From NCBI GenBank assembly GCA_963169875.1, contig CAUJEL010000040.1, positions 16,323 to 80,322 on the forward strand: a stretch of DNA of 64,000 nucleotides, read 5' to 3'. Source of the stretch: Candidatus Zhuqueibacterota bacterium (GTDB lineage: Bacteria > Zhuqueibacterota > Zhuqueibacteria > Residuimicrobiales > Residuimicrobiaceae). The position numbers and the translations under genes are program-made. Positions 29,796 to 49,708 of this stretch are shown here, in pieces (the stretch's first letter is position 1; every line of letters begins with the position of its first letter). Below the pieces are notes generated by a model. That model did not search any database. It had not been told where the DNA came from and was given only the letters and a program-made list of their open reading frames with translations.

Positions 29796-31289
<1,494 letters not shown>

Positions 31290-32559: not shown

Positions 32560-32612
32560 TATGGAAAAACCTCCCGATCAAAATTACCTGATGGCGGGCG
32601 GCCCCCCACCCT

Positions 32613-32701: not shown

Positions 32702-32724
32702 CAGATGGCGAACTGACGCCCGCC

Positions 32725-35004
32725 CTACCCGTGCAACGCCAGCAACACGCGTTCCGGCGTCAGCGGTGCGGTGTATTCCACCTGCCAATCCGGCCGGAAC
32801 ACTTTGATGGCATTGATCAGGGCAAAATAACCGGCAATGCCGTACATGAACGGTGGCTCGCCGATGGCCTTGCTGTGAAACGGTCCCGGCGGATTGAAAG
32901 AATCCGGCAAAAAATGCACATCGATCACCTTCGGCGCAAAAAAGATATCCGGCACCTTGTAGGTCGTCAGGCTGTCGGCCAGGAGACGGCCGGTTTTATC
33001 ATGAATAGTTTCTTCCAGCGTCAGCCATCCCAATCCCTGCACCACGGCGCCTTCCACCTGCCCCTGATCGATTAACGGGTCCAGCGACTGCCCCACATCG
33101 TGCACCAGGCGCACGGCATCGAAGCGGTATGTCCCGCGCACCACATCCACTGTCGCTTCCACCATGGCGGCGCCATAGACATGATAGGCAAAGGCATCGC
33201 CCTTGTTTTTGTCGCGATCGAAAAAGATATGCGGAGTGGCATAATGGGCATGGGCGGACAAATTGATGCGGCTGCAATAGGCCTCCCGAATCAGCGTCGG
33301 CCAATCCCAGTCAATCCTTTTTCCATCAATCAACACCTGTTCATCGAGAATGGCAACCTGATCCGGCTGATCCAGGCCGCGTAAAACCGCCAGAAAAGAC
33401 TTCAGTCGTAACAAAATGCTCTCACAGGCAAGTCGGGTGGCATTGCCGTTGAGATCGGGTCCGGTGCTGGCAGCTGTGGCCGAGGTATTGGCATTGCGCG
33501 TGGTATTGGTGCTCTCCATGCGGATGCGACCCACCGAAATGCCGAGAACGCGGGCGGCGATGCCTCTGATCTTCTCATGGGTGCCCTGCCCCATTTCCAC
33601 CACGCCGGTGCTCACGCCCACACTGCCATCGGAGTAGACATGCACCAGCGCGTTGGCCTGATTGAGCAGGGTATTGGTGAAAGAGATGCCGAAACAGATT
33701 GGCATGACGGCAATCCCTTTTTTCTCGAAGGGATGAGCTGCATTGAATCGAGCCGCATCCGCGCGCAGTTTTTCCGTTTCGCAGCGTTCCTCCAGAATTT
33801 GCCAGCATTTGCGGATGTGCGGATTGACGGCCTTCTGACCATAGGGAAATTCATCCCCCTCGCGCAGCAGATTGGCGTGCTGGATGACCGAAGCGTCAAC
33901 GCCCAGTGCTTGCGCCGCCCGATGGATGGCGGATTCGATGACGAACATGGCCTGGGGTCCACCAAATCCGCGAAAGGCGGTGTTGGGTGCACAGTTGGTG
34001 CGGCAGCTGTAGCCCGTGGCGCGGACATTGGGGATGTGATAACAGTTGCTGGTGTGAAACAGCGTCCGGTCCAGGATGGCGGGAGAAAGATCGGCCGCGG
34101 CGCCGGCATTTTGATAGAAGGAGACCTCATACGCGAGAATTTTGCCGACGGCATTCAATCCTATCTTATAATCCGAAGAATAGGGATGGCGTTTGCCGGT
34201 ATAGCGCATATCTTCATGGCGGCGCAGCACCAGTTTGACGGGCTTTTTCATCTTGAAAGCAGCCAGGGCTGCCAAAGCCGCCCAACAGCTGGCCTGATCT
34301 TCCTTGCCGCCGAACGCACCCCCGAGCCGCAGGACTTCCACCTCGATGTGATGCATGGGCAGATTCAGCACGCGCGCCACCGTTTTTTGCACACTGGTCG
34401 GAGATTGTGTGGCCGAGAAGAGCTTGATGCCGCCGTCTTCCCGCGGCAGGGCGATGGCACCCTGGGTTTCGAGATAGAGGTGTTCCTGACCGCCGGAATC
34501 GGCGCGGCCGCTGATGATATACTCGCACTGCGCCCAGGCGGCATCCACATCGCCGCAGGCGAAGACCCGAGGCGGCTGGATGAGTTGATTGTGCGCATAG
34601 GCTTCACGCGGATCGAGGATGGGCTTTTTTTCCTTGATCTCCGCCGTGACCAGCCGGACAGCCCGCCGCGCCGCATCTGCGGTTTTCGCAACCACGAGGG
34701 CGATGGGCTGACCTGCGAAATCCACGCCCTTTTCAGCCAGGAGCACTTCGTCGCGAATGATGCCGCCGATCTGGTTTTCGCCGGGAATGTCCGCCGCCGT
34801 CAGAATGCCCGCCACATCAGGCGTGTGTGCAGCTGCTTCGATATCGAGGTTTTTCAAGACGCCATGGGCGACGGGTGAAGCGAACACCGCCGCGTGCAAA
34901 CAACCGGATGGCAGGGTGTGATCATCGATGTAAATCGATTCGCCGCGAACATGCAGGGTTGCGTCATGATATTTCATAAAAAATCCTGCGTTAGCAAATG
35001 ACAA
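32725..35004 (-). CDS. xdhB: Xanthine dehydrogenase molybdopterin-binding subunit
   Basis: 759-aa ORF with typical XDH Mo-subunit features, including GGAFGGKE, the QGxxQ-type loop (METQGAIA...) and GEPP near the C-terminus. Confidence 0.85.
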   Translation of the reverse strand: MSFANAGFFMKYHDATLHVRGESIYIDDHTLPSGCLHAAVFASPVAHGVLKNLDIEAAAHTPDVAGILTAADIPGENQIGGIIRDEVLLAEKGVDFAGQPIALVVAKTADAARRAVRLVTAEIKEKKPILDPREAYAHNQLIQPPRVFACGDVDAAWAQCEYIISGRADSGGQEHLYLETQGAIALPREDGGIKLFSATQSPTSVQKTVARVLNLPMHHIEVEVLRLGGAFGGKEDQASCWAALAALAAFKMKKPVKLVLRRHEDMRYTGKRHPYSSDYKIGLNAVGKILAYEVSFYQNAGAAADLSPAILDRTLFHTSNCYHIPNVRATGYSCRTNCAPNTAFRGFGGPQAMFVIESAIHRAAQALGVDASVIQHANLLREGDEFPYGQKAVNPHIRKCWQILEERCETEKLRADAARFNAAHPFEKKGIAVMPICFGISFTNTLLNQANALVHVYSDGSVGVSTGVVEMGQGTHEKIRGIAARVLGISVGRIRMESTNTTRNANTSATAASTGPDLNGNATRLACESILLRLKSFLAVLRGLDQPDQVAILDEQVLIDGKRIDWDWPTLIREAYCSRINLSAHAHYATPHIFFDRDKNKGDAFAYHVYGAAMVEATVDVVRGTYRFDAVRLVHDVGQSLDPLIDQGQVEGAVVQGLGWLTLEETIHDKTGRLLADSLTTYKVPDIFFAPKVIDVHFLPDSFNPPGPFHSKAIGEPPFMYGIAGYFALINAIKVFRPDWQVEYTAPLTPERVLLALHG

Positions 35005-35143
35005 ACTTACTATTCCAAGCCATTTAATCTGTTCAATTCATGCCCGGATTCTATGCCAACTCAACCTGCGTATGCAAATGTATTCACCACAAGGAGTAAT
35101 TGGAATGAGCTCAAAGCGACCTCTGACACCGCGGATGAATCAA

Positions 35144-36544
35144 TCATGGATACAGAAACCGATGCAGCTGCGCCCGAATTAATTGGCCCAGCAACAGCTT
35201 TTTATATCGCGCTGACCCGCGGACGTCACTGATGGGTGATATCTCCGTGAGCGCGCACGCCACCGTCCGGGCGACGGTTTCCTCGTTGATTTTGCAGTTG
35301 CGCAACAGGAGCGAAGTTTTGCTCAAATAAAGTGGTATGGGTGCCACCCCTCCCGCTGAAACATGCGCCGTTATAACCATGCCTCCCTGAATATCCAACA
35401 ACATGGCTGAATTCACCGAAGCGATATCCAGATAGGTTCTTTTGCTGACCTTTTCAAAAGAAAAACGGGCGGATGCCGGAGGTATCGCAAAAGAGAGCGC
35501 GGTCACCAGTTCCTCATCATGACGCTGCATGGTTTTGTAGCCGGTGAAAAAATGGCGCAGCGGCAGGGAGCGCTGTTGTTTTTCATCAAAGGATCGCAGG
35601 TGGATGTGGGCATCCAGGGCGAGCAGCATGATGGTCAGATCCCCGATCGGCGAGGCATTGATGATATTTCCGGCAACGGTGGCACGATTGCGGATTTGCG
35701 TGGATGAGACCAGCTCCAGGCTGGCTGCGAGTTGCGGCAGAACTTCATGAAGGATGCCCGAGCGGCGCAGGGTTTCCACGGTGACAGCAGCGCCGATGCT
35801 GCAAATACCCTCGTGAACCTGGATCCTTTTCAAATCGGGGCGATCTGCCAGCAGCCCCACATGGCGATTCTGCAGGTCTTCACCGCGCTGCACATAGATA
35901 TCCGTGCCGCCGGCGACCAACGCCTGCGTATCCATCGTTTGCATTTGCGGCGACAGGCCCATTTTTTTCAGCTCCGCAGCCACCGTGGCGAAATATTCAG
36001 GCAAAAAGCCGGATGCAATCAATGCGGTTATGCGCTGCGGCGTGGACGGATCGCTGGAGAAAAGGCCGGGGGGAACGATGTCGAGCACTCTCTCAATGGC
36101 GCGGCGGATACCCGAGTATCCGGTGCAGCGGCAGATATTGCCGGCCACGCTCATGACGGCCTCGCCCACATCCGCGGAAGTTGCGTTGATCAGGTACGCG
36201 GTCATGGACATGACCAGACCCGGTGTGCAGAAGCCGCACTGAACCGCCCCTGCCTCGATCAACGCACGCTGCAGTGGGCTCGGATCGGCCGTGTTCAGGC
36301 CTTCGATGGTGACCACCTGTTTCCCGGTGCAATCGCCCACCGGCATGAGGCAGGAGTCGACTGCGTCATAGACGATGCGATCGTTCTCCATCCGGCCTAT
36401 CAGAACGGTACAGGCGCCGCAATCTCCCTCGCGGCATCCTTCCTTGGTGCCTTTCAAATCGAGCGTATCGCGAAGCACATCCAGCAGAACACGTCCGGTT
36501 GGCAGCTGCAACTCCAGGACTTGCTGATTGATCATGACCTGCAT
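35144..36544 (-). CDS. xdhA: Xanthine dehydrogenase small subunit (fused 2Fe-2S and FAD-binding domains)
   Basis: N-terminal CREGDCGACTV / CGFCTPG / CRCTGY ferredoxin motifs, followed by the FAD-binding (CO dehydrogenase flavoprotein-like) domain AGGTDIYV. Confidence 0.85.
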   Translation of the reverse strand: MQVMINQQVLELQLPTGRVLLDVLRDTLDLKGTKEGCREGDCGACTVLIGRMENDRIVYDAVDSCLMPVGDCTGKQVVTIEGLNTADPSPLQRALIEAGAVQCGFCTPGLVMSMTAYLINATSADVGEAVMSVAGNICRCTGYSGIRRAIERVLDIVPPGLFSSDPSTPQRITALIASGFLPEYFATVAAELKKMGLSPQMQTMDTQALVAGGTDIYVQRGEDLQNRHVGLLADRPDLKRIQVHEGICSIGAAVTVETLRRSGILHEVLPQLAASLELVSSTQIRNRATVAGNIINASPIGDLTIMLLALDAHIHLRSFDEKQQRSLPLRHFFTGYKTMQRHDEELVTALSFAIPPASARFSFEKVSKRTYLDIASVNSAMLLDIQGGMVITAHVSAGGVAPIPLYLSKTSLLLRNCKINEETVARTVACALTEISPISDVRGSARYKKLLLGQLIRAQLHRFLYP

Positions 36545-37932: not shown

Positions 37933-39081
37933 CTACGGATTTACCTGCCCCAGCGCCTGTTCCATATCCGCGATCAAATCATCAATATGCTCCAACCCGA
38001 CGGACACACGGATCAAATCTTGCGTGATTCCTATCGCCGCTCGCACCTCTTCAGGCATGCTGGTGTGCGTCATGCTCCATGGCTGCTCCATCAGCGACTC
38101 AACGCCTCCCAGCGACACTGCCAATGTGAAGACTTGTACATTGCGCAGCAGGGCAAAGGCTCCCTCCTGCCCCCCTTTGACCCGGAACGAAAACGTGCCG
38201 CCATACCCGCTCATCTGTCGCTGCGCCAAATCATGCTGCGGGTGGCTCGCCAGTCCCGGATGTAATACCCGTTCGATCCTGGGGTGATTTTCCAGCCATA
38301 CGGCCAAAGCCAGCGCGTTACGATGATGTTCCTCCATGCGCACACCCAGCGTCTTGATGCCGCGGAGAACCAGATATGAATCGAAGGGACCGAGACAGGT
38401 GCCCATGGTTTTTTGATAGAACTGAAGCTGTTCAGCCAGATCTGCATCCTTGACGATCAACGCTCCGGCGACGACATCGGAATGACCATTGATGTACTTG
38501 GTCATCGAATGCATGACAATATCGATGCCCAAAGACAAGGGCTTCTGAAAGTAGGGACTGGAAAAGGTATTATCGCAAATGCTGATGCAGCCGTGTTCCC
38601 GGGCTACGCCGGCTATGGCCGCCAGGTCCAGCAGATTCATCAACGGATTGGTGGGCGTCTCGGTCCAGATGCCTTTGGTGTTGGGTTTGATGGCCGCCCG
38701 CAGCGCATCCATGTCGCGCAGATTGACGAAATCGAACGTGACCCCGTGCTCGCTGGAAATGGAAACGAGATAACGATACGTCCCGCCATAGAGATCATCG
38801 TGGATGATGAGATGATCGCCCTGTTTGAACAACTCCAACACTGTCGCCACCGCCGCCATGCCGGTGGCCAGAGCAAAGCCGTGGGTGCCGCCCTCGAGCG
38901 CGGCCAGACAATCCTCCAAAGCCTTGCGCGTCGGATTGCCGCTGCGCGAATAATCAAAGGGACCAGGCTGATTGACATCCTGAAAGGCAAAGGTGGAAGT
39001 CTGATAGATCGGGGTCATCACGGCGCCATAATTCTGCTCCGGCGCTTGGCCGGCATGAATGGCCAGGGTCTTGAAGTGCAT
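37933..39081 (-). CDS. Cys/Met-metabolism PLP enzyme (cystathionine gamma-synthase / beta-lyase / methionine gamma-lyase family)
   Basis: 382-aa ORF with SGNPTR, DNTFSSPY and HSMTKYINGHSDVVAG (PLP-lysine) motifs. Confidence 0.8.
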   Translation of the reverse strand: MHFKTLAIHAGQAPEQNYGAVMTPIYQTSTFAFQDVNQPGPFDYSRSGNPTRKALEDCLAALEGGTHGFALATGMAAVATVLELFKQGDHLIIHDDLYGGTYRYLVSISSEHGVTFDFVNLRDMDALRAAIKPNTKGIWTETPTNPLMNLLDLAAIAGVAREHGCISICDNTFSSPYFQKPLSLGIDIVMHSMTKYINGHSDVVAGALIVKDADLAEQLQFYQKTMGTCLGPFDSYLVLRGIKTLGVRMEEHHRNALALAVWLENHPRIERVLHPGLASHPQHDLAQRQMSGYGGTFSFRVKGGQEGAFALLRNVQVFTLAVSLGGVESLMEQPWSMTHTSMPEEVRAAIGITQDLIRVSVGLEHIDDLIADMEQALGQVNP

Positions 39082-39119: not shown

Positions 39120-39400
39120 GGGGAACCGAATGATTTCGGATTGCAGAAAGGATTTCGGAATTCGGAAAAATATCTCCGCTTGCGGAGAAGATTTCTGAAT
39201 TCGGAACTCGGAAAATTGTCTTGGATTACGGAAAAGATTTTCGTCATTCGGCTCGGGATTTCGGAAACTAGTGTCTTTACTTCCGAAACCCGAAATCACA
39301 GGTCGAAATCTTTATTTTCCGCAATCAAAGTGATCCAAAATCACAAATCCAAAATCTCGGTCAACTGCCTGCAATCCGGCAGCGGTGCTCCCTGGGCATC
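39120..39400. promoter_or_regulatory. Low-complexity array of at least 6 (A/G)ATTTCGGAA / TTCCGAAA boxes, plus an ATCTCCGC-TTGC-GGAGAAGAT palindrome, upstream of the cystathionine-synthase-family gene
   Basis: GATTTCGGAT, GGATTTCGGAATTCGGAAAAAT, TCTGAATTCGGAACTCGGAAAAT, GGGATTTCGGAAACT and ACTTCCGAAACCCGAAATCAC recur every ~30-60 nt. Purely noncoding. Confidence 0.3.
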
Positions 39401-39401: not shown

Positions 39402-40823
39402 CTATTTCTTGATCTGTGAGATGAATTCCTCCACCTCGGGGATGCCGCCCTGGAAAATCAGATAGCCGTTTGAGGGCTCGCGCTCGGTGATCTCGCCGTT
39501 GATGGGGGTGTACATGATTTTTTTCACTTCCGCCAAATCCTTGCTCTGCCCCAGGGCCCAGCCCAGTTTGACATAAGCGACTTCCGGCAGCATGTTGGCC
39601 ATGGGCACTACGCCGAGTTCCATCATGTCGCGGCCGGTGTCGTATACATACATCTGCACATAACCCCACAAGGTCTGCACGGTCATATAGACCGCGATGT
39701 TTTTCTCCTGGGCGCGTTTCAGGGCCGGATAGAGCGGTTTGTTGACGTGCCCCAGACCGGTTCCGGCTATGATGATACCGCGATAACCGTGGTCGATCAG
39801 CGCGTCGATGATGTCCGGTTTCATATTGGGATAATAATAGACAATACTCACCTTTTCCTCGAACGCGGTGTTGATCACCACATGACGATCATTTCGGCGG
39901 CGTCTGTAATCCTGGCGCAGGGGTGTGATCTTCTCGCGACTCACCATGGCCAGGGGAATGTCGCCGATGGTGCGAAACGTGGAGCGATAGCTGGAGTGCA
40001 TCTTGCGCACGCGGGTGCCGCGGTGCAGCAGGCCATAGACATCCGAAGTCGGACCGAACATGCACACCATCACCTCCGCGATGTTGGATTCCGCGGCGGT
40101 TTTCACCGAATGCATCAGATTGAGCGCGGCATCGGATGAAGGACGGTCTGAGGAGCGCTGCGATCCCACCATGACGATGGGCACCGGCGGATTCTGCACC
40201 ATGAAGGAGAGAATTGCGGCGGTGTGGTGCATGGTATCGGTGCCGTGGCCGATGACGATGCCCTGCACACCTTTTTCGATCTCGCGGCCGATGGCCTGGG
40301 CCGTGCCGATCCACTGCTCCGGTCCCATATTCTCGCTGAAAACGCCGTAGAGCTTTTCCGTCTCCAGATTGCAGATATCAGCCAGCTCCGGCACCGAACC
40401 GTACAGTTCACCCGGCGAAAAGGCGGGAATCACCGCACCGGTGCGGTAGTCGAGCCGCGAAGCGATGGTGCCGCCGGTGCCCAAAAGTTTCACGCGCGGC
40501 TTTCGCGGTTCATAGGGGAATTCCTTTTCCGGGATTTTATAGTGCGCCTCCTTGCGTCCCAGAATCTCGATGGCGGTGATGGTCTCCGCGCGAATGCCGA
40601 TATTATAGCCCGAACGGAGTTTGATGACAACATGCAGGGGATCCGCGGTTTCCGAACGCGGCAGGACTATGCCGGCATAATTCCCTTTCAAGGTCGTTAT
40701 CTTGACATCGCTCCAGATCGGCGTGTTGAAATTCTGCAACGCCGCCAGAGCTTCACCGCGATACCCTTTATAAGCTTCTTGCGTGGACATGGGCTCAATT
40801 CCTGCCTTCTGATACGTGTTCAT
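39402..40823 (-). CDS. gatD: Glu-tRNA(Gln) amidotransferase subunit D (archaeal-type, asparaginase-domain)
   Basis: ~95-aa GatD-specific N-terminal domain (NYAGIVLPRSETADPLHVVIKLRSGYNIGI). Asparaginase domain with LLGTGGTIAS and GIVIGHGTDTM. Confidence 0.75.
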   Translation of the reverse strand: MNTYQKAGIEPMSTQEAYKGYRGEALAALQNFNTPIWSDVKITTLKGNYAGIVLPRSETADPLHVVIKLRSGYNIGIRAETITAIEILGRKEAHYKIPEKEFPYEPRKPRVKLLGTGGTIASRLDYRTGAVIPAFSPGELYGSVPELADICNLETEKLYGVFSENMGPEQWIGTAQAIGREIEKGVQGIVIGHGTDTMHHTAAILSFMVQNPPVPIVMVGSQRSSDRPSSDAALNLMHSVKTAAESNIAEVMVCMFGPTSDVYGLLHRGTRVRKMHSSYRSTFRTIGDIPLAMVSREKITPLRQDYRRRRNDRHVVINTAFEEKVSIVYYYPNMKPDIIDALIDHGYRGIIIAGTGLGHVNKPLYPALKRAQEKNIAVYMTVQTLWGYVQMYVYDTGRDMMELGVVPMANMLPEVAYVKLGWALGQSKDLAEVKKIMYTPINGEITEREPSNGYLIFQGGIPEVEEFISQIKK

Positions 40824-40937
40824 TTCATCACCCCAAATTCGGAAAAATCTGAATCATGACGGGTGTTTTGCCCCACCAGGGTTTGCGAAGCAACCCGCAG
40901 ACGCTGAATCAGTGATCCTTAATCAGGCGTGTGAACA

Positions 40938-41846
40938 TCAGGTTTTTTTCATAACTGTTGTTTGTAATCCCGCTGCGCCAACAATCTCCGGCGTGATGCT
41001 CTCCCACATCACCGGCATGATGTGAATGCCAGCGACTCCTTTCATGCGCCGCACTTCCTTGATGATCTCCACGGCCATGGCGGCCCCCTCCTCTTGCGGC
41101 GCCGAGGCATTTTTCATGCGCTGCAGGAAATCAGGACAAATCCGCATGCCCGGCACCTCAGCTTGCATGTATTCCAGCGCTTTAACGGATTTGACCGGCA
41201 GAATGCCCGCCAGAATGGCCGTCTTTTCATGCAAGCCGCGCTCGCGGACCAGATTCATCCATTTTGAAAAACGCTCGAGATCAAAGACCGGCTGGGTTTG
41301 AATGAACGCGGCCCCAGCCCGGACCTTTTTCTCCAGCCGGATCAGCCGCATCTCCAACGGCTCTCCGCAGGGATTGGCCGCAGCACCAATAAAAAAATGC
41401 GGCGCTTTCTTCAAAGGCTGTCCTGACAACAACGTGCCGCTGTTCATCTGCGCCAGTGTGGCGATGAGTTGTATGGAATCCAGATCAAATACGCCCCTGG
41501 CTTCGGGATGATCGCCGAAACGCTGATGGTCCCCGGTGAGGCAGAGCACGTTCTCAATGCCCAGAGCCGCGGCCCCGAGCAGATCGCTCTGAATGGCGAT
41601 GCGGTTGCGGTCCCGGCAGGTCACTTGCATGATTGGCTCAAGGCCTTGCTCGAGCAATATTTTGGCGGCGGCAATGCTGGAGAGGCGCACGATGGCGGTT
41701 TGATTGTCCGTGATATTCACGGCATCAACAACACCTGTGAAGTACGCCGCTTTCTTGCGGATGACATCGGCATCGCAGCTTTGCGGCGGTCCCATTTCGG
41801 CGCACACGGCGAATTCGCCTCTGGCAATTTTTTCTCGTAATGACAT
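40938..41846 (-). CDS. metF: Methylenetetrahydrofolate reductase
   Basis: MTHFR TIM-barrel sequence starting at the internal Met MSLREKIARGEFAVCAEMGPP. The ORF track extends it 29 codons upstream. Confidence 0.75.
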   Translation of the reverse strand: MSLREKIARGEFAVCAEMGPPQSCDADVIRKKAAYFTGVVDAVNITDNQTAIVRLSSIAAAKILLEQGLEPIMQVTCRDRNRIAIQSDLLGAAALGIENVLCLTGDHQRFGDHPEARGVFDLDSIQLIATLAQMNSGTLLSGQPLKKAPHFFIGAAANPCGEPLEMRLIRLEKKVRAGAAFIQTQPVFDLERFSKWMNLVRERGLHEKTAILAGILPVKSVKALEYMQAEVPGMRICPDFLQRMKNASAPQEEGAAMAVEIIKEVRRMKGVAGIHIMPVMWESITPEIVGAAGLQTTVMKKT

Positions 41847-41991
41847 GAATGGCTTTCGTTTCAAGTTTGCTGCATTTGGCAAAGAAAGAGTTACGGAACA
41901 GTGAAAAAAAGTGGCTGCATGGTTTACCAGCAAAGGTCGTTTAAAAAAATCAAATAAACTGATTCCTTTCTACCCTGTTCCATTCATTCGT

Positions 41992-42399
41992 TCACTCGTC
42001 CCGCGGCACCCGCCACTTGGGTGCTTCGGTGCGGCCGGTGAACACGTTCAACCAGGCGGACGTTTTTTCCAGGTTCCAGTCGTGTATCTTTTCGATGCGA
42101 TATAATAACTTGATGCGGCCGAAGAGCCGGGCGCGGCGATAGACCAGATACCAGATGCACAGGCGTTCCGGATAGACCTCGCAGCGCCCATCCTCACCCG
42201 TGCCGCCGCAGGGGCCATTGCGCAGCCGCTTCGGACAGCGCTGCGAACAGACAAATCCCGTATGGCTGAGGATGCATTCCCCACAGCGCTGACAATGAAA
42301 AAGGGGCACTTTGATAACATCTTCCCAGAAGAGCATCATATGGGACAGGGTGCGTTCCCAGCGGTTGTGGCGTTTCTTCTGGCGCGTAACAATCTCCAT
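41992..42399 (-). CDS. MetV-like Cys-rich zinc-ribbon protein (MTHFR C-terminal-domain-like), immediately upstream of metF
   Basis: Cys motifs CQRCGECILSHTGFVCSQRCPKRLRNGPCGG. Small protein. Co-oriented with metF and 145 nt upstream. Confidence 0.55.
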   Translation of the reverse strand: MEIVTRQKKRHNRWERTLSHMMLFWEDVIKVPLFHCQRCGECILSHTGFVCSQRCPKRLRNGPCGGTGEDGRCEVYPERLCIWYLVYRRARLFGRIKLLYRIEKIHDWNLEKTSAWLNVFTGRTEAPKWRVPRDE

Positions 42400-42460
42400 A
42401 GGTTCCGATTCCTCTCTTGACCACGAGGTAATTATCACAAAAATCTGTCTTTCGCCCTAT

Positions 42461-43966
42461 CTATTGGCCAAACTCAGACTTGATGGCTTGGGCCATTTCA
42501 ACCAGCCGCCAATAGGGCGGCATATATCCCTGTTCATTCATAAAGTTTTGCACCTGTACCTCCAGCCGGCGCTTGATCCGGCTGTGCAGGCTGGTGTACC
42601 ATTGATTGCGCAGGGCCGATGTGGCGCTCATGCCCTCCGGCACCGGGCCGACGCCGCCAAACGCATTCAAGATCATGCTGTACGTTTTAGCCAGACGGGC
42701 CAGCGGCAATAAAAATCGATTATAATGTAGTGGCTCGCCAATATGGGCGCCATCGAGCAAAATTTCGGTCACGGCATTATCAATATGATCCTTGCGCAGG
42801 GTTTCGAGATCACGCCATTCCGCGACCACCTGAAGCTGCGGATCGTACTCGAGATCGGAGGGTTCCTGGGTGGTGAAGTGGCGCACGCCAAATCCCGCCA
42901 GCCAACGCCGCAAGCCCGTCGAAGAGATCTGCGACAGGCTCATCCACAGGTCGATGCCCAGGTTACGGTAGGCGGCCGAGGCCACTTCCGAGCAGAACAG
43001 TTTGCTGCTGTCGCTGAAATCCATGGCAAAGTCATAGGGAATATGTTGCTGTTGCGCCCGTTCCAGGGCGCGTTCAGCAGCACGATGCGGCAGCAGGGGA
43101 TCAGCGGCCATTGCCGGCAGATCGGCGCGCAGCCGCAAAACCAGGACGCGCAGTTTGATATCCTGCAGATAATCCTGCAAGGAGGAGATAGTCACGCCGC
43201 GTTCGATATGGCTCTCGAGGATGCTGGCCAAATGGGTCTTGGGATGCACATAAACCAGGGCGACGTGGGAAAAATTACCGGCAAAATCATTGCCGCGCGC
43301 GATCAGGGCCGACGTGGCGGCGCCGCCGCGGGAGACGAGCATGTCCCCACTGTGGATTTTCACGCCGAGGATGCTCGCCCACGGCGTCTGGCTGGGTTCG
43401 TCCACGCCCATCATAAGCGGCTGCAACGCAAATTGCGGCGGCACCTGCAGCATGACCTCTTCGACCGCCGCCCGGCCACCGTAGAGAAGCCGGTACAGTG
43501 TGATGCGCGACGGCGATTGCGTCATATCCCATCTCAAGGATTGGCGCTTCATTTGCATGCGCATCCGGTTCACGGCATCGCTGAAAGCGTTGAGGTGTTG
43601 CGGACAGGCTGCGACCAGAGGCGCCGTTTCGAACAACGCAGCTTCCAAGTCGCGATAAAAAGCGTCTTGAGGCGGCAGGTTGCGGTCGTCCAGGGAATCG
43701 ATCATGTGATTGAGGAAAAACAACTGCGAGATAATCCGCTCCCGCGCCGACGTGCAGCCCAGCTCCCGCGTCTGCTGAAATTCGCCCTCGAGTGCGCGCC
43801 AGAAAGCATCCTGCTTCCAGGCAAAGGGCTGGCTCTCCGCCGGCCGATTCACCGCCACAGTGCCAGGCGCATCCGATTCCGGTATGAATAATAAAAGATA
43901 CACCAGGCAAAGAACGCCCGCCGCGATGATTATCCGGCGATAATATGTCTGTTTTTGGGGTCTCAA
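42461..43966 (-). CDS. Membrane-anchored YiiX/DUF830-like permuted papain-fold hydrolase
   Basis: N-terminal transmembrane helix. Motifs HSGDMLVSRGG...SALI...FSHVALVYV and YDFAMDFSDSSKLFCSEVASAAY match E. coli YiiX QTGDIIF...SHTGMLV and DFSFSWSDDRQYCSEVVWKVY. Confidence 0.5.
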   Translation of the reverse strand: MRPQKQTYYRRIIIAAGVLCLVYLLLFIPESDAPGTVAVNRPAESQPFAWKQDAFWRALEGEFQQTRELGCTSARERIISQLFFLNHMIDSLDDRNLPPQDAFYRDLEAALFETAPLVAACPQHLNAFSDAVNRMRMQMKRQSLRWDMTQSPSRITLYRLLYGGRAAVEEVMLQVPPQFALQPLMMGVDEPSQTPWASILGVKIHSGDMLVSRGGAATSALIARGNDFAGNFSHVALVYVHPKTHLASILESHIERGVTISSLQDYLQDIKLRVLVLRLRADLPAMAADPLLPHRAAERALERAQQQHIPYDFAMDFSDSSKLFCSEVASAAYRNLGIDLWMSLSQISSTGLRRWLAGFGVRHFTTQEPSDLEYDPQLQVVAEWRDLETLRKDHIDNAVTEILLDGAHIGEPLHYNRFLLPLARLAKTYSMILNAFGGVGPVPEGMSATSALRNQWYTSLHSRIKRRLEVQVQNFMNEQGYMPPYWRLVEMAQAIKSEFGQ

Positions 43967-43978
43967 CGATTCATTCCA

Positions 43979-45883
43979 TCAAACCATCTTCTTAACGCGT
44001 GCAGCCAACTGACTCGCATCAGTACGGCCTGCATATAAATCCATCATGTGTCCCATGAGCCAGCGCCAACGCGCTGCAATCTCTGTGCTTGAAACCGTGG
44101 ACAGCAATTTCATCGCATCCTTCAGCGCGTTTTCAAGGTCTTCAGCCGGCAATGGCGTCTGCCACGATTCCCACATCATTTCCTGATCCAGCAGCCATTT
44201 CTCCATCGCAAGGAGAACCCCTTCCTTGTACAGCTTTCCAGAGGCGATGGCCTGCAATAGCGCGGCCATAAAGTCGGGCGTCAATTGCTGGGTTTCGAAG
44301 CTCTTTTTATGCAGCCGCTTCGGATAGTGGGTGAGAATCACTGCAGCCAGTCCGGGCGCCACGCCCCATTCTTTCACAGCCCGCGCAAAGATCGTCGCAT
44401 ACGGGGAGCAGGCCAGCGGTTTGATGGTGTCCTGGGGCAGCGCCAGACTCTGATACCAGGCTTCGCGCTCCCAAACCGGTTGCGGCAGTGTGGCGCGAAT
44501 GCGTTCGATACGATCCACCGTGATGCGTTTGGGCGGCAGATCGGTGTCCGGATACATGCGATCCGGTCCCGGGAGAATCCGCTCAAAGCCGTTGGTGCCA
44601 TCTTCCAGGGCCTGCCGCGTTTCGGAAGGAATGCCGATGGTCGCTTCCCGGGCGCGGATAATAATCTCCCGGGCGCCCATCTCCGCATCCGCGGGCGGCC
44701 CCCACACCAGGACCAGCGTGTCGTCCTCTGTCGCGTTGAGGATTTTGCGCAGATTCAGCCATTCCGAGCTGGCCAGCGTCTCGCCGGGCGAATCCGAGTG
44801 GACGATGTTGGGCAGCGTCGTCAGGCAGGCGATAACGCGGACGCGGTCGGATATCTCGCGGGCGAAATAGGTGTCGGTTTGGGTTTGCCAGCGCAGCAGC
44901 CCGCGGAAGCCCTGCAGCACCACGCCGTGGACGTCCATGCCGCCGGCGATGGCCTGTGAAATCGGATAGAACCGCGTCTTGCGCAGCAGCTTGTTGACAT
45001 TCTCGTGATGGCCTTTGCAGGTCTCCGCCGTGATGCCGCGCTTGTTCAATTCATCGCGCAGCCGCAGCAGATTCCACTGCCGCATGGCCTCATTGTAAGT
45101 GAGGAGCGGGATTAAGGGAATCCGCGAGACGCCTTTGATTTCGATGCGTGTGCCGCCGGTGACGCTGACATTGACATCCTGCCGCGCCGCGCCAATGCCC
45201 GTGCGCACCCGGCCGGTGGAACGCACGAGGCGCCGCAGCATCTGCGCCACCTCAGCGACTTCCTGCGGCGTCTTCATCTCCGGCGCAGTCACGGTCTCGA
45301 TCAGCGGCATGCCGAGGCGGTCGGTGATGTAAACGCGGCGATGGCCGGCATCGCTCACCTCACGGCAGGCATCCTCCTCCAATCCGAGTTGAATGATGTG
45401 AATCATGCGATCTTTATAGGGGATGGCACCATCCACGCCGACGATGGTCGTACGCTGAAAACCCGTGGGGATGCTGCCGTCGAGGTACTGTTTGCGCGCG
45501 ATATGCAATTCATCCACCAGCACGCAGTTGTAGAGCATGGCGATGGCCAGCGCATTATCCAGCGCTTGTTCGTTGAGTTCAAAGGGCGGCGTATCATCCA
45601 TTTCGTAGGTGCACACGGTTTCACGGTTGATCTGATAGATGATCTCTTTTCGCGTCTTGAACTCCATCAACGCAGTACCATCATACTCTCCCAACTCGGA
45701 TAGCGTGGGACGCATGTGGCGCAGAATTTCCGCATCATAGTCGTCGCTGTAGCGGCCGGCTGGACAGCGGCAGAAGAGTTTTTTATCGGTGAAAAGTTGT
45801 TGATGGATTTCCAGTCCGGATTTGAATCCAACCGCTTGATAATCCTTTTCGTGCATCTCTTCGAACGGCTTAAACATGAACAT
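43979..45883 (-). CDS. gatE: Glu-tRNA(Gln) amidotransferase subunit E (archaeal-type)
   Basis: N-terminal GFKSGLEIHQQL...KLFCRCPAG GatB/GatE catalytic motif. 634 aa with a GatE-specific insertion domain and a C-terminal GatB/YqeY-like tail. Confidence 0.8.
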   Translation of the reverse strand: MFMFKPFEEMHEKDYQAVGFKSGLEIHQQLFTDKKLFCRCPAGRYSDDYDAEILRHMRPTLSELGEYDGTALMEFKTRKEIIYQINRETVCTYEMDDTPPFELNEQALDNALAIAMLYNCVLVDELHIARKQYLDGSIPTGFQRTTIVGVDGAIPYKDRMIHIIQLGLEEDACREVSDAGHRRVYITDRLGMPLIETVTAPEMKTPQEVAEVAQMLRRLVRSTGRVRTGIGAARQDVNVSVTGGTRIEIKGVSRIPLIPLLTYNEAMRQWNLLRLRDELNKRGITAETCKGHHENVNKLLRKTRFYPISQAIAGGMDVHGVVLQGFRGLLRWQTQTDTYFAREISDRVRVIACLTTLPNIVHSDSPGETLASSEWLNLRKILNATEDDTLVLVWGPPADAEMGAREIIIRAREATIGIPSETRQALEDGTNGFERILPGPDRMYPDTDLPPKRITVDRIERIRATLPQPVWEREAWYQSLALPQDTIKPLACSPYATIFARAVKEWGVAPGLAAVILTHYPKRLHKKSFETQQLTPDFMAALLQAIASGKLYKEGVLLAMEKWLLDQEMMWESWQTPLPAEDLENALKDAMKLLSTVSSTEIAARWRWLMGHMMDLYAGRTDASQLAARVKKMV

Positions 45884-46402: not shown

Positions 46403-48007
46403 ATGAAAAAGGTTAATGTAAAATCGCTTGCACTGTTTGCCCTCGTGGCATTTTATGTGCATTTGGCCGCGCCAGGCACTGTGACGGCGCAGCAGTTTGA
46501 GTTTGATGGCTGGAATTACAACGGCAGCCATTCAGTCTATAATTATACATTTACATCCGGTACACAACCGGCCATCAGCCATAGCGGTTTACAGGGATTT
46601 TGCGTGGGCTCGGAGGATATCATTTCCGTAGAGTTGTCTTTGAATGGCGCAACGTATAATCCTGTTTCTTCAGAAATAATCATCAAAACAAATAGCCAGG
46701 AACCCTTGTGCCTGGCTGATTTCCCGGCACTGAAGTTTAATCAGGGCTTTCAGGATGGGCAAACGATTAATTTTCGCCTGACGTTGAACGGGTACTTTCC
46801 CCCGAAGATGGGGCAAGGATGGTGGAAGGGCGGCACGACAGGCGCCTGCTTTGAGATACAGGTGCCCGACTGCGATCAGACCAGCGCCAATCCAATGATA
46901 GATATCGAGAAAGCTGTTAATGGAGAGGATGCGGACGCCCCAACCGGCCCCATGATCCCCATCGGCAGTGCTGTTAACTGGACGTATGTGGTCACCAATC
47001 CCGGCACTGTTGCGCTGTCTAATGTGACCGTGGTTGATGATATGGGTGTGGTTCCGGTTTATCAATCTGGAGATTTGAACAACAACGATTCGCTTGATAC
47101 AGATGAAACCTGGATTTACACCGCGTCGGGCATCGCTGTTCAAGGCCAATATAAAAACATCGGCACAGCAACGGGCACCTTTGATGACCAAACCGTGCGC
47201 GATGATGACCCGGCGCATTATTTCGGCATTGCACGAAGCGCACCTGGCATTAAAATCGTCAAGTATGTCAACGAGGAAGATGCCAATGAGCCCACTGGTC
47301 CTGTTGTAACAGTCGGTTCAACCGTGACCTTCACTTATGTCGTCACCAATACCGGCAACGTGCCGCTCGCCGATGTCTCTGTGGACGACGACAAGCCGGG
47401 CGTCAATCCCGCGTACCAATCAGGAGATGCCAATGAGGATGGCCTCCTGGACACGGATGAGACCTGGATTTATACGGCAACCGCCGCCGCCGTGGAAGGC
47501 CAATACAAAAACATCGGTACAGTGACGGGTACCTATGAAGACCAAACAGTAAACGATGATGATCCGGCCCACTATTTCGGCGAATACGAGACGGGTTGTG
47601 TCGATGGCACGGTTTACAGCAATGGTCAACCCCAGGCGAATGTTTTGGTACGCCTCGAAACACCCGGCCGTAAAGCGGCCAAGCAGCACACCGACGGCAA
47701 TGGTTACTATCGTTTTGATAATGTCATCCGCGGGTTTGAGTACACCCTCACGGTGAACGGCCAGCCGGAACTGACGCGCACCGTGGTGGTAGATGATCAG
47801 TTGGCCTGCCAGACCCAGGATCTCTTCGGCGGCGGCTGCAAGCCGGTTTTCGCCCTGTACCAGACCTGGTACGGCAACGCAGAAAACGATTCCACCCTGC
47901 GTTACTGGGCCACATCCAACAAAGGCGGTATAACCGATACATCCGTGGTTGGATTTTACGATTCTCACGATGAAAAAATCATGGAGTACCATGTGCTGCT
48001 GGCCTAG
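46403..48007 (+). CDS. N-terminal portion of a large T9SS surface protein (signal peptide, two DUF11-type repeats, CarbopepD_reg-like domain, start of a GH99-like domain), ending at an in-frame TAG
   Basis: AGGAG RBS. Signal peptide MKKVNVKSLALFALVAFYVHLAAPGTVTA. Tandem repeats IDIEKAVNGEDADAPTGP...QGQYKNIGTATG. YQTWYGN motif. Stops at TAG 48005-48007, which lies inside a 10-bp palindrome GGCCTAGGCC. Confidence 0.6.
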   Translation: MKKVNVKSLALFALVAFYVHLAAPGTVTAQQFEFDGWNYNGSHSVYNYTFTSGTQPAISHSGLQGFCVGSEDIISVELSLNGATYNPVSSEIIIKTNSQEPLCLADFPALKFNQGFQDGQTINFRLTLNGYFPPKMGQGWWKGGTTGACFEIQVPDCDQTSANPMIDIEKAVNGEDADAPTGPMIPIGSAVNWTYVVTNPGTVALSNVTVVDDMGVVPVYQSGDLNNNDSLDTDETWIYTASGIAVQGQYKNIGTATGTFDDQTVRDDDPAHYFGIARSAPGIKIVKYVNEEDANEPTGPVVTVGSTVTFTYVVTNTGNVPLADVSVDDDKPGVNPAYQSGDANEDGLLDTDETWIYTATAAAVEGQYKNIGTVTGTYEDQTVNDDDPAHYFGEYETGCVDGTVYSNGQPQANVLVRLETPGRKAAKQHTDGNGYYRFDNVIRGFEYTLTVNGQPELTRTVVVDDQLACQTQDLFGGGCKPVFALYQTWYGNAENDSTLRYWATSNKGGITDTSVVGFYDSHDEKIMEYHVLLA

Positions 48008-48028
48008 GCCTCTGATATCGATGCGCTG

Positions 48029-49708
48029 GTGGTGGACTGGTACGGCATGGATTCCTTTGAAGATGGTCCGACGCATAAACTGCTGAACACGGTGGAACGG
48101 CTTTACAAGCAATACCATCATCTTGGTTTCAGTTTCAACATCATTGTTTCCTATAATGAAGAAGCCTCAGGCGATCTGGCGGCGAATTTAAAGTTCCTGG
48201 CGGATTCTATCCTGACGCACCCCGGCTATTATGGGACCTTTGAGAAAAAACCAAAACCCGTGTTTGTTCATACACATCACAGCGAATTCGCAGAACAATT
48301 TCTGGCGTTGGCCAAAATATACCTGCCCAGCGATGTGCAGATACTGCTGAATTATGAAGAGGCCAATCTGGCTCTGGCGCCCCAGGTAACGGGCTTTTAT
48401 CCCCACCTCACCGATGCCGAGGACATTCATGATCCCCAAGGCAGAGAATGGGGCGAAAAGTACCTCACGGATTTCTACAACTCGGACACCAGAAATATGC
48501 CACTGCAAGTCGGCGGAACCTGGCCCGGATTGGACGACCGCCAGTGGGTGCAAGGCAGAGGGCTGTATGTAGATCGCCAGGACACCATGGTTTATGACAA
48601 GACCTGGGAGAAGGCGTTCGAGAATCAGCCGGATTGGATGCTCATTCAGTCCTGGAATTCGTTCAACCAGACCACCCAGATCGAAGTGTCCGAGCAGGAA
48701 GGTTACAAATTCGTCAAGATGTCGCGCAACAAGGCGGTCTTGTGGAAATCCGGCTGCGCCCGCGAAGTGGATGACCTGGGCTTGACGGTCCCGCAAGCGG
48801 TTCTGGAAGCCCGTACCCGCGGCATCGACAGTTTGTATGTCGAACAGGCTTTGTTGGAATTCTTCCAGCGTAACTATGACCAGGCGTTGGCGATTCTCGA
48901 CATTGCAGGACCTGGCCCGGAGCAAAGTCAGCCGGTGAGCGACCGCGATGATCAGCTGGTTTTTGTGGAAGGGTCTGACACCAATAAAAAACAGAACTGG
49001 GACAATGCGGTGGATGGAGAGGTGAACGGATGGAAAGCCACCACCACGGCCAAGTGGAACGGCGGTGCGGGAAATACCTACGCCATCTTAAAATTTGCCG
49101 ATCAGGGCAAATATCTGTTCAACAGCGTCTATTTGCAGACCGACAACGGCACGGATGACGATGCCTACAGCAGCCGTCAGGCGACCGACGTCGAAATCCT
49201 GGTTTCCACAACCGGCACCAATCCCCAGGATTTTCAATCCGTGATACGTTTCCAGCCGCGCGATGGCGCCATGCGGATCTACAAATTAAACCGCTACGTT
49301 ACCGCGGCCTATGTCAAGATCGTTCTTCACGGCCCGGACTATGGCCAGGGTGGATGGGTTCAGGTGGTTGAATTCGGTGTTGCAAGCGATGGCAAATATG
49401 CAGCCACGCCGGTGACCGAGACTGCAGCGGTTGCTGCGATTCCGCTGTCGTTCAGTCTGGAACAGAATTACCCCAACCCCTTTAACCCGGGCACGACGAT
49501 CCGTTATGATCTGCCGGAGCAGGCGAGGGTCGTGTTGAAGATCTATGATCTGACCGGCAGAGAGGTCGCCACGCTGGTGGACGAGGTTCAGGAAGGCGGG
49601 CAGCATACTACGACCTGGAATGCATCCTCCCTTGCGTCCGGCACCTATCTCTATCAACTGCGCGCGGGTGCCAATACCGCCGTGAAACGGATGACCCTCG
49701 TGAAATAA
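48029..49708 (+). CDS. C-terminal portion of the same protein (rest of the GH99-like hydrolase domain, discoidin-like domain, T9SS CTD)
   Basis: Same reading frame as 46403..48007, 7 codons after the TAG. It begins with GTG, and has no RBS and no signal peptide even though it ends in a CTD (LEQNYPNPFNPGTTIRYDL...GTYLYQLRAG). The module QTDNGTDDD...YVKIVLHGP is paralogous to the one in the ubiquitin cargo protein. Confidence 0.6.
   Translation: MVDWYGMDSFEDGPTHKLLNTVERLYKQYHHLGFSFNIIVSYNEEASGDLAANLKFLADSILTHPGYYGTFEKKPKPVFVHTHHSEFAEQFLALAKIYLPSDVQILLNYEEANLALAPQVTGFYPHLTDAEDIHDPQGREWGEKYLTDFYNSDTRNMPLQVGGTWPGLDDRQWVQGRGLYVDRQDTMVYDKTWEKAFENQPDWMLIQSWNSFNQTTQIEVSEQEGYKFVKMSRNKAVLWKSGCAREVDDLGLTVPQAVLEARTRGIDSLYVEQALLEFFQRNYDQALAILDIAGPGPEQSQPVSDRDDQLVFVEGSDTNKKQNWDNAVDGEVNGWKATTTAKWNGGAGNTYAILKFADQGKYLFNSVYLQTDNGTDDDAYSSRQATDVEILVSTTGTNPQDFQSVIRFQPRDGAMRIYKLNRYVTAAYVKIVLHGPDYGQGGWVQVVEFGVASDGKYAATPVTETAAVAAIPLSFSLEQNYPNPFNPGTTIRYDLPEQARVVLKIYDLTGREVATLVDEVQEGGQHTTTWNASSLASGTYLYQLRAGANTAVKRMTLVK

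What the first reader, a model, noticed from the sequence alone, without database searches (positions are those of the whole stretch)
39402..45883. Archaeal-type GatD and GatE in a bacterium, separated by metV-metF and a YiiX-like gene
- GatD and GatE form the tRNA-dependent Glu-tRNAGln amidotransferase that is characteristic of archaea. Bacteria normally use GatCAB.
- Evidence for GatD: the GatD-specific N-terminal domain followed by an asparaginase domain.
- Evidence for GatE: the GLEIHQQL…CRCP catalytic motif in a 634-aa protein.
- The pair is co-oriented but interrupted by three unrelated genes.
- This suggests inter-domain transfer, or an FCB lineage that retains GatDE.
Basis: partly seen in the sequence, partly recalled or inferred. 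Interest (0 to 1): 0.5.

Follow-up and report, generated by a model that had tools for sequence, protein, structure and literature searches.

The report
Archaeal-type GatDE amidotransferase in a bacterium
This bacterium carries intact genes for GatD and GatE, the enzyme that makes glutamine on its tRNA and that textbooks call exclusive to archaea; the pair belongs to a large, old, bacteria-only branch of the family, and here three unrelated genes have been inserted into what is normally a two-gene operon.

Summary
Five co-oriented minus-strand genes lie at 39402-45883: gatE, a YiiX-like gene, metV, metF and gatD.

- **Identity.** Both Gat proteins pass NCBI's GatD and GatE equivalog cut-offs. 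They align over their full length to the archaeal GatDE crystal structures and keep the catalytic and GatE-specific residues. Both are under strong purifying selection.
- **Host.** The host is an FCB-group bacterium: the window encodes several T9SS-sorted proteins, and its closest relative is MAG UBA2214.
- **Not a one-off.** At least 80 bacterial species genomes carry close homologues. In 75 of them gatE and gatD are adjacent. Only the window's small clade has metV-metF inserted, and only the window and UBA2214 also have the YiiX-like gene.
- **Phylogeny.** Bacterial GatE forms one clade (92-100% NJ bootstrap), distinct from archaeal GatE. Its nearest archaeal neighbours are Asgard sequences, with weak support. 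This favours one old archaea-to-bacteria transfer followed by vertical descent.
- **Status in the literature.** Reviews up to 2022 still call GatDE exclusively archaeal, although databases already label these proteins GatD and GatE.
- **Open question.** Two relatives encode an intact GlnRS beside gatD. Whether GatDE is the only route to Gln-tRNA(Gln) in these bacteria is unresolved.

The parts
43979..45883 (-). gatE: Glu-tRNA(Gln) amidotransferase subunit E (kinase/transamidase). It has a cradle domain, an AspRS-like insertion (about residues 275-416), a helical domain and a YqeY-like tail.
   Evidence: NF003107 scores 526 bits (cut-off 456) and TIGR00134 scores 452 (cut-off 320). Full-length match to 1zq1_C (E 1e-100) and 2d6f_C. 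74 of 86 archaeal-conserved columns are identical. The AF2 model's best PDB hits are 1zq1_C and 2d6f. The insertion gives a sub-threshold GAD hit (19.1 bits against 23.4) and the tail scores 27.2 against 27 for GatB_Yqey. dN/dS is 0.17 against L001.
42461..43966 (-). YiiX/YaeF-like permuted papain-fold (Peptidase_C92) protein, 501 aa, with a hydrophobic N-terminus. It is an inserted passenger gene.
   Evidence: PF05708 scores 46 bits. It is present only in the window and L001 among the related loci. dN/dS is 0.16.
41992..42438 (-). metV: small zinc-ribbon subunit of MetVF-type methylenetetrahydrofolate reductase.
   Evidence: PF12225 scores 91 bits. It lies between gatE and gatD only in the window and L001-L004.
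40938..41933 (-). metF: MTHFR catalytic subunit. The ORF as listed starts at a TTG; the likely true start is the ATG at 41849.
   Evidence: PF02219 scores 136 bits. NF006396 matches over its MTHFR part with 262 bits. 89% identical to the L001 homologue, dN/dS 0.055.
39402..40823 (-). gatD: Glu-tRNA(Gln) amidotransferase subunit D (asparaginase-fold glutaminase with the GatD N-terminal domain).
   Evidence: NF003217 scores 518 bits (cut-off 310) and TIGR02153 scores 512 (cut-off 324). Pfam finds GatD_N, Asparaginase and Asparaginase_C. Matches 1zq1_A at E 3e-121 with 49% identity. Motifs TGGTIAS (116), HGTDTM (193), SDRPSSDA (225) and RKMH (273) are intact. dN/dS is 0.048.
39173..39188 (-). Terminator-like hairpin followed by a T-run, about 214 nt downstream of the gatD stop. 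It is a possible operon end.
   Evidence: The total number of such sites in the region is no higher than in shuffled sequence, so this is weak evidence.
37933..39081 (-). Cys/Met-metabolism PLP enzyme (cystathionine gamma-synthase-like), downstream neighbour. Together with metVF it gives the locus a methionine-synthesis flavour.
   Evidence: PF01053 scores 513 bits. It is syntenic in L001.

Best explanation
The window encodes a functional, bacterial version of the heterodimeric tRNA-dependent amidotransferase GatDE.

**Expected mechanism, by analogy with the archaeal enzyme.**
1. GatD, an asparaginase-fold glutaminase, releases ammonia from Gln or Asn.
2. GatE uses ATP to phosphorylate the gamma-carboxyl of glutamate that a non-discriminating GluRS has mischarged onto tRNA(Gln).
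3. GatE then amidates it to give Gln-tRNA(Gln).

**Origin.** The genes belong to a large, monophyletic, bacteria-only GatDE clade found in FCB-group lineages. MAG labels include Ignavibacteria, Kapabacteria, KSB1/UBA2214, CSSED10-310 and other Bacteroidota-like names. Its ancestral arrangement is a two-gene gatE-gatD operon. The clade most likely arose from one ancient transfer from archaea and has since been inherited vertically.

**The interruption.** In the window's narrow lineage a metV-metF cassette inserted between gatE and gatD. A YiiX-like gene was added later. All five genes remain co-directional and were probably still co-transcribed, at least in part.

**Shown:** gene identity, domain architecture, conserved catalytic residues, purifying selection, synteny and the clade structure.
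**Inferred:** enzymatic activity, tRNA substrate, direction and donor of the transfer, and co-transcription.
For: - **Family identity.** Equivalog HMM scores exceed the cut-offs for both subunits. GatD_N and both asparaginase domains are present. Both proteins match the archaeal GatDE crystal structures over their full length, while GatB and asparaginases match only in part.
- **Conserved residues.** 74 of 86 columns that are at least 90% conserved in archaeal GatE are identical here. These include residues shared with the GatB active site (E25, H27, K35, R130, K131, E169/170, R234, D236, N238, E248, K250) and GatE-only signatures (DGS 135-137, RT 144-145, G251, T447). The GatD motifs are intact.
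- **Fold.** The AF2 model (pLDDT 77.6) hits 1zq1_C and 2d6f first, then GatB, then AspRS.
- **Selection.** dN/dS is 0.048 for gatD and 0.17 for gatE against L001.
- **Spread and synteny.** 341 matches in species-representative genomes; the best 80 are all bacterial. gatE and gatD are adjacent on the same strand in 75 of 80 loci. The insertion occurs only in L001-L004 and the window.
- **Phylogeny.** The bacterial clade has 92/100 support (GatB-rooted, 442 columns) and 100/100 (unrooted, 622 columns). Bacteria plus the Asgard-like group get 29/100 and 58/100. Archaea excluding bacteria are monophyletic in at most 3/100 replicates.
- **Composition.** GC and GC3 equal those of the neighbouring genes.
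Against: - No biochemical data exist for any bacterial GatDE.
- I could not examine whole genomes. The presence or absence of GatCAB, GlnRS, a non-discriminating GluRS, and the identity elements of tRNA(Gln) are therefore unknown for this organism.
- Two GatDE-bearing relatives (L024, L043) encode an intact GlnRS, 57-59% identical to E. coli GlnS, directly beside gatD. GatDE need not be the sole or even the main route to Gln-tRNA(Gln).
- The archaeal tail motif GxxAxG, implicated in tRNA discrimination (PMC2811023), is replaced by an Arg-rich stretch. The conserved insertion-domain motif (GIFHxDE) has diverged. tRNA recognition may therefore differ.
- The trees are neighbour-joining only. The root position and the Asgard affinity are weakly supported.
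Confidence: 0.75

Rival explanations
1. Vertical retention from LUCA. GatDE was present in the last common ancestor and survived in this FCB lineage while all other bacteria lost it.
For: Bacterial GatE is a single well-supported clade, clearly separated from every archaeal sequence sampled (at most 43% identity). Sheppard and Soll proposed that both AdTs were in LUCA, as quoted in PMC9499178.
Against: In the GatB-rooted tree the archaeal sequences form a clade excluding bacteria in only 0-3 of 100 bootstraps. The best tree nests the bacterial clade next to Asgard sequences. Every labelled member falls in FCB-type lineages or unclassified MAGs, so this scenario needs very many independent losses.
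Confidence: 0.12
2. Repurposed enzyme. The bacterial GatDE clade has a changed substrate or role. Examples are Asp-tRNA(Asn) amidation and tRNA-dependent asparagine synthesis, a back-up Gln pathway, or altered tRNA identity rules, alongside a direct GlnRS pathway.
For: An intact GlnRS lies on the same Mb-scale contig and adjacent to intact gatE-gatD in L043, and also in L024. The tail GxxAxG motif is replaced and the insertion-domain motif has diverged across the bacterial clade. GatD is unusually conserved (median 85% identity) while GatE is only 65%.
Against: The active-site residues and the GatE-specific residues around the pocket are conserved. Many bacteria keep an AdT together with GlnRS without any change in chemistry. 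The GlnRS adjacency is not conserved: 0 of 80 metagenome loci with related GlnRS carry gatD or gatE. No data bear on substrate.
Confidence: 0.12
3. Misannotation or artefact. The proteins are an ordinary type I asparaginase plus GatB, or the region is archaeal contamination or a chimeric assembly.
For: GatD also matches the type I asparaginase subfamily model (391 bits), and GatE matches GatB models in part.
Against: The GatD and GatE equivalog scores are higher and above cut-off, while the GatB scores are far below cut-off. The GatD_N domain and the GatE insertion are present. The genes sit between bacterial genes with the same GC3. The same operon occurs on closed bacterial chromosomes and Mb-scale contigs.
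Confidence: 0.01

Closest known systems
Archaeal GatDE (Methanothermobacter thermautotrophicus, PDB 2D6F; Pyrococcus abyssi, PDB 1ZQ1)
   Same: The two-subunit composition is the same. GatD has the N-terminal domain plus the asparaginase fold, with the catalytic Thr/Thr-Asp/Lys motifs. GatE has the cradle domain, AspRS-like insertion, helical domain and YqeY-like tail. Alignment is full-length (GatD 49% identity to 1zq1_A; GatE 34-38%).
   Different: The host is a bacterium. The sequences form a separate bacterial clade. The tail GxxAxG motif is replaced by an Arg-rich segment, and the GIFHxDE motif of the insertion domain has diverged. In most bacterial carriers gatE and gatD form a tight operon. 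Some carriers also encode GlnRS, which reviews say no archaeon has (PMC9499178).
Bacterial GatCAB (GatB subunit; for example S. aureus 3IP4, T. thermophilus 3KFU)
   Same: The catalytic cradle and YqeY-type tail are homologous. The ATP-dependent phosphorylation and transamidation chemistry is the same. Active-site residues are shared.
   Different: GatB lacks the insertion of about 140 residues and the N-terminal GatE-specific segments. It pairs with the amidase GatA and with GatC, not with an asparaginase-type GatD. It matches only residues about 100-280 of the window protein, at E 1e-27 or weaker.
Type I L-asparaginase (AnsA; for example Pyrococcus 1WLS, 4Q0M)
   Same: GatD residues 109-447 have the same fold and catalytic motifs.
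   Different: AnsA has no GatD N-terminal domain and no GatE partner. Scores are much lower (about 140 bits against 400+ for GatD structures).
MetVF-type methylenetetrahydrofolate reductase of anaerobes
   Same: The inserted pair has a PF02219 MTHFR subunit next to a PF12225 zinc-ribbon subunit.
   Different: No functional link to GatDE is evident. It is a passenger insertion found only in the window's small clade.

Membership tests
GatE (Glu-tRNA(Gln) amidotransferase subunit E) | Scores above the curated equivalog cut-offs (NF003107, TIGR00134) | tested here: met
   526 bits against 456, and 452 against 320.
GatE (Glu-tRNA(Gln) amidotransferase subunit E) | GatB/GatE cradle domain with conserved catalytic residues | tested here: met
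   PF02934 scores 162 bits. 74 of 86 archaeal-conserved columns are identical, including E25, H27, K35, R130, K131, E169/170, D236, N238, E248 and K250.
GatE (Glu-tRNA(Gln) amidotransferase subunit E) | AspRS-like insertion domain that is absent from GatB | tested here: met
   Residues 275-313 and 317-416 have no GatB counterpart. The GAD hit is sub-threshold (19.1 against 23.4) but covers the whole model. Relatives carry PF02938. AspRS structures appear among the fold hits. The archaeal GIFHxDE motif is not conserved.
GatE (Glu-tRNA(Gln) amidotransferase subunit E) | YqeY-like tail with the GxxAxG motif used for tRNA discrimination | tested here: inconclusive
   The tail domain is present, at the cut-off (27.2-27.6 against 27). 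The LMGxxMxxxRGR segment is conserved, but GxxAxG is replaced by AARWRW.
GatE (Glu-tRNA(Gln) amidotransferase subunit E) | ATP-dependent amidation of Glu-tRNA(Gln) but not Asp-tRNA(Asn) | not testable with these tools
   This needs biochemistry.
GatD (Glu-tRNA(Gln) amidotransferase subunit D) | Scores above the curated equivalog cut-offs (NF003217, TIGR02153) | tested here: met
   518 bits against 310, and 512 against 324.
GatD (Glu-tRNA(Gln) amidotransferase subunit D) | GatD-specific N-terminal domain followed by asparaginase N- and C-terminal domains with the catalytic motifs | tested here: met
   PF18195 scores 53 bits, PF00710 188 bits and PF17763 112 bits. TGGTIAS, HGTDTM, SDRPSSDA and RKMH are intact.
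GatDE system | Both subunits encoded in the same genome and co-inherited | tested here: met
   Same strand, 3.2 kb apart in the window. Directly adjacent in 75 of 80 related loci.
GatDE system | Archaeal host ('exclusively archaeal' in PMC2811023 and PMC9499178) | tested here: not met
   The window and all 80 best loci are bacterial. This is a statement about distribution, not a biochemical criterion, so it does not exclude membership.
GatDE system | Sole route to Gln-tRNA(Gln): no GlnRS, with a non-discriminating GluRS present | tested here: inconclusive
   No GlnRS, GatA or GatB in the 64-kb window or in L001-L004. An intact GlnRS lies beside gatD in L024 and L043.
GatB (GatCAB subunit B) | Scores above the GatB equivalog cut-offs; no insertion domain; partners GatA and GatC | tested here: not met
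   The best GatB model scores 138 bits against a cut-off of 338. The insertion is present. No gatA, gatB or gatC lies within 10 kb in any of the 80 loci.

The most novel reading that the evidence does not exclude
A core component of the translation apparatus, long treated as an archaeal signature, crossed domains once. The donor may have been an Asgard-related archaeon. The enzyme became a fixed, highly conserved housekeeping enzyme in a large part of the FCB superphylum. There it must have been re-tuned to bacterial tRNA(Gln), which has U1-A72 rather than the archaeal A1-U72. The rebuilt tail motif fits this idea. The enzyme may have taken on a shifted role, such as coexistence with GlnRS or possibly Asp-tRNA(Asn) or dual specificity. 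This would contradict the argument that co-evolution of GatDE with tRNA(Gln) blocks inter-domain exchange of the Gln-charging machinery.
Probability: 0.25. Interest if true: 0.75.

Novelty: new member of a known kind. Interest (0 to 1): 0.5.

Why it matters
GatDE is used as a textbook archaeal signature. From memory, its HMMs also serve as archaeal marker genes in genome-quality and taxonomy pipelines. Reviews up to 2022 state that it occurs only in archaea, and they build co-evolution arguments on that (tRNA(Gln) identity, absence of GlnRS in archaea).

A large, conserved, monophyletic bacterial clade shows the distribution statement is outdated.
- It provides a natural experiment on how an amidotransferase adapts to foreign tRNA identity rules.
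- It matters for domain-level marker sets and contamination estimates in MAGs.
- For this particular window, the split operon is a minor, lineage-specific rearrangement.

Tried and rejected
1. **tRNA(Gln) near the genes.** ARAGORN found no tRNA in the window and no tRNA-Gln in the 80 loci. The A1-U72 against U1-A72 question could not be tested.
2. **Rfam.** A gathering-threshold scan of the window found nothing, so there is no riboswitch or T-box upstream.
3. **GatB, GatA or GlnRS near gatED.** There is no GatB in any locus. One generic amidase occurs in L006. GlnRS occurs only in L024 and L043.
4. **Is the GlnRS-gatD adjacency conserved?** No. 0 of 80 metagenome loci with related GlnRS carry gatD or gatE, so the adjacency is incidental. 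It still proves co-occurrence on the same contig.
5. **Source contig.** Exact look-up of the window GatE to recover its source contig or organism failed; it is not on record.
6. **Cultured carriers.** I tried to show that Ignavibacterium album carries GatDE, in order to combine this with PMC3927822, which reports GlnRS in that species. No isolate name appears among the top hits, so this stays unresolved. The supplementary table of that paper is garbled, and I do not rely on it for GatCAB.
7. **Conserved neighbours of gatED.** There are none beyond the two genes; the flanks vary.
8. **Promoter and terminator scan.** Counts equal those in shuffled sequence. Only one plausible terminator lies after gatD.
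9. **Natrinema GatE from PLSDB.** It was dropped from the tree because its N-terminus looked frame-shifted.
10. **Contamination or recent-transfer reading.** Rejected on composition and on the presence of the operon in closed bacterial chromosomes.

Full report
**1.

The minus strand of 39402-45883 carries five ORFs in the stated order.
- **gatE, 43979-45883 (634 aa).** It passes both NCBIfam GatE equivalog models: NF003107 at 526 bits (cut-off 456) and TIGR00134 at 452 bits (cut-off 320). The best GatB model reaches only 138 bits against a cut-off of 338.
- **gatD, 39402-40823 (473 aa).** It passes both GatD equivalogs: 518 bits (cut-off 310) and 512 bits (cut-off 324). Pfam finds the GatD_N domain followed by the asparaginase N- and C-terminal domains.
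- **The three genes in between.** A 501-aa Peptidase_C92 (YaeF/YiiX) protein at 42461-43966, a MetV-type zinc-ribbon protein (PF12225) at 41992-42438, and an MTHFR (PF02219) at 40938-41933.
- **Downstream neighbour.** A Cys/Met PLP enzyme lies at 37933-39081.
- **Quoted motifs.** GLEIHQQL is at residue 23 and CRCP at residue 38.

**2. These are true GatD and GatE**

- **Solved structures.** GatE aligns end to end with the two archaeal GatE structures, 1zq1_C (E 1e-100) and 2d6f_C. GatB chains match only residues about 100-280. GatD aligns with 1zq1_A (E 3e-121, 49% identity) and 2d6f_A, far ahead of any asparaginase.
- **Conserved columns.** I aligned 42 bacterial-type and 76 archaeal GatE representatives with four GatB sequences. 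74 of the 86 columns that are at least 90% conserved among archaeal GatE are identical in the window protein. They include the residues shared with the GatB active site and residues specific to GatE: DGS 135-137, RT 144-145, G251, T447, and several in N-terminal segments that GatB lacks.
- **Insertion domain.** Residues 275-416 have no GatB counterpart. They give a sub-threshold but full-length GAD-domain match.
- **Predicted fold.** An AlphaFold2 model (pLDDT 77.6) hits 1zq1_C and 2d6f first, then GatB chains, then AspRS.
- **GatD motifs.** TGGTIAS, HGTDTM, SDRPSSDA and RKMH are intact.
- **Selection.** Against the closest relative (L001), dN/dS is 0.048 for gatD and 0.17 for gatE, with synonymous sites near saturation. 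Both genes are under strong purifying selection.

**3. The host is a bacterium and the genes are at home there**

- The window encodes several proteins with T9SS C-terminal sorting domains, a YgeW/xanthine-dehydrogenase purine-catabolism cluster and an RsmF-like methyltransferase. T9SS sorting domains are characteristic of the FCB group (established knowledge).
- GC and GC3 of gatD and gatE (0.57-0.58 and 0.72-0.73) fall within the range of the neighbouring genes.
- The closest locus is 'bacterium UBA2214' (L001). Across six syntenic genes it is 74-93% identical at the protein level. UBA2214 is a GTDB class-level placeholder. From memory it sits in KSB1.

**4. It is a lineage-wide trait**

- A scan of one genome per species found 341 stretches that encode a relative. 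The best 80 (60-80% GatE identity) are all bacterial MAGs or chromosomes. Labels include Ignavibacteria, Kapabacteria, Melioribacteraceae, Bacteroidota, Chlorobiota and KSB1, plus some labels that are probably unreliable. The set includes closed chromosomes of 2.4-5.5 Mb and Mb-scale contigs.
- The protein database holds thousands of such proteins. NCBI and JGI already name many of them GatE.
- In 75 of the 80 loci gatE and gatD are directly adjacent on the same strand, with a median gap of about 25 nt.
- The insertion is rare. L003 and L004 show gatE-metV-metF-gatD, and L002 shows gatE-metV-metF before its contig ends. L001 and the window also have the YiiX-like gene. L034 ends before gatD could be seen.
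- The 'interruption' is therefore a two-step, clade-specific insertion into an ancestral gatED operon.
- GatD is strikingly conserved across these bacteria (median 85% identity), against 65% for GatE.
- No other neighbour is conserved.

**5. Relationship to archaeal GatDE**

- An exhaustive HMMER search of 1.84 billion cluster representatives gave two tiers: 43-61% identity, then 31-38%.
- The names that could be recovered assign the upper tier to bacteria: CSSED10-310, and Ignavibacteria and Kapaibacteriota for the divergent P0135 group.
- The lower tier is archaeal: Ignisphaera, an unclassified archaeon, Heimdallarchaeota, Thorarchaeota and Odinarchaeota.
- Neighbour-joining trees give these supports:

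| Grouping | GatB-rooted, 442 columns | Unrooted, 622 columns |
|---|---|---|
| Bacterial clade | 92/100 | 100/100 |
| Bacteria + the six Asgard-like sequences | 29/100 | 58/100 |
| Archaeal clade excluding bacteria | 0-3/100 | not applicable |

- This favours a single old archaea-to-bacteria transfer, possibly from an Asgard relative, over retention from LUCA.
- The method is simple and the support for the donor is weak.

**6. What may differ functionally**

- **Tail domain.** The segment LMGxxMxxxRGR is conserved in both groups. [quoted passage not shown] In the window it is replaced by an Arg-rich stretch, AARWRW, and by similar stretches across the bacterial clade.
- **Insertion domain.** The archaeal GIFHxDE motif has also diverged.
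[quoted passage not shown] A re-tuned tRNA-recognition surface is therefore plausible, but I could not test it. No tRNA(Gln) gene lies in any sequence I could reach.
- **Coexistence with GlnRS.** Two relatives, L024 and L043, each on a contig of about 1 Mb, encode an intact GlnRS directly beside gatD. It is 57-59% identical to E. coli GlnS. In L043 all three genes are intact.
- The adjacency itself is incidental: 0 of 80 metagenome loci with related GlnRS carry gatD or gatE. It still shows that GatDE and the direct pathway can coexist in these bacteria.
- Whether the window's organism has GlnRS or GatCAB is unknown. Neither is in the 64-kb window.

**7. Literature**

- Papers from 2009 and 2022 state that GatDE occurs exclusively, or now only, in archaea (PMC2811023; PMC9499178).
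- Full-text searches combining GatDE or GatD with Ignavibacteria, Melioribacter, Kapabacteria, Calditrichota or KSB1 found nothing.
- The bacterial clade is therefore visible in database annotation but, as far as I could search, is not discussed in the literature. The Sheppard and Soll 2008 paper was not available.

**8. Verdict**

- The finding is a new, bacterial membership of a known enzyme family, not a new kind of system.
- The local oddity, the split operon, is a minor rearrangement.
- The broader point deserves moderate interest: a large bacterial GatDE clade that contradicts the 'archaea-only' statement, has a rebuilt tRNA-recognition tail and sometimes coexists with GlnRS. The genome census and biochemistry listed under next steps would test it directly.

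Noticed in passing
window 29802-31289 (+): A 495-aa protein with a signal-peptide-like N-terminus. Residues 34-109 are 69/76 identical to human ubiquitin, recalled from memory (Pfam ubiquitin 108 bits, E 2e-31). The C-terminal GG is replaced by AV. An SdrD_B-like domain and a T9SS C-terminal sorting domain follow. This would be a secreted, near-eukaryotic ubiquitin fusion in an FCB bacterium. The gene's GC3 (0.59) is below that of its neighbours (0.65-0.73). It is reminiscent of Bacteroides fragilis BfUbb (from memory) but much closer to eukaryotic ubiquitin.
   Followed up: partly
window 5171-36544: A large purine/pyrimidine catabolism cluster of the E. coli ygeW-xdh type. It includes the knotted carbamoyltransferase YgeW (6798-8003), a Mo-hydroxylase (8659-10941), a hydantoinase/dihydropyrimidinase (10923-12266), a PALP enzyme (19873-21120), an M20 peptidase (21107-22315), an amidohydrolase (25656-26981), a GltD-like/PreA fusion (26991-29477), and xdhC, xdhB and xdhA (31627-36544).
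   Followed up: partly
L024 13291-14973 (-) and L043 about 13319-14968 (-): An intact bacterial GlnRS (57-59% identical to E. coli GlnS) lies convergent to, and abutting, gatD in two GatDE-bearing MAGs. The adjacency is not conserved in 80 metagenome loci with related GlnRS.
   Followed up: yes
window 22658-25594 (+): A 978-aa protein whose only Pfam match is a C-terminal RyR (ryanodine-receptor repeat) domain (52 bits). Its function is unknown.
   Followed up: no
window 14441-19540, 46403-49708 and 53974-57114: Several large secreted proteins carry FlgD-Ig or Por_Secre_tail (T9SS) C-terminal domains. Among them are an M4 thermolysin-like protease of 1046 aa and a DUF7507-repeat protein. This supports the FCB-group assignment of the host.
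   Followed up: partly
L010, L015, L016, L021, L022, L032, L055, L056 (flanks of gatED): In eight Ignavibacteria-like loci a histidine/phenylalanine ammonia-lyase-like gene of about 507 aa lies within a few kb of gatE-gatD. I judged the family from the sequence by eye and did not run it through a family search.
   Followed up: no
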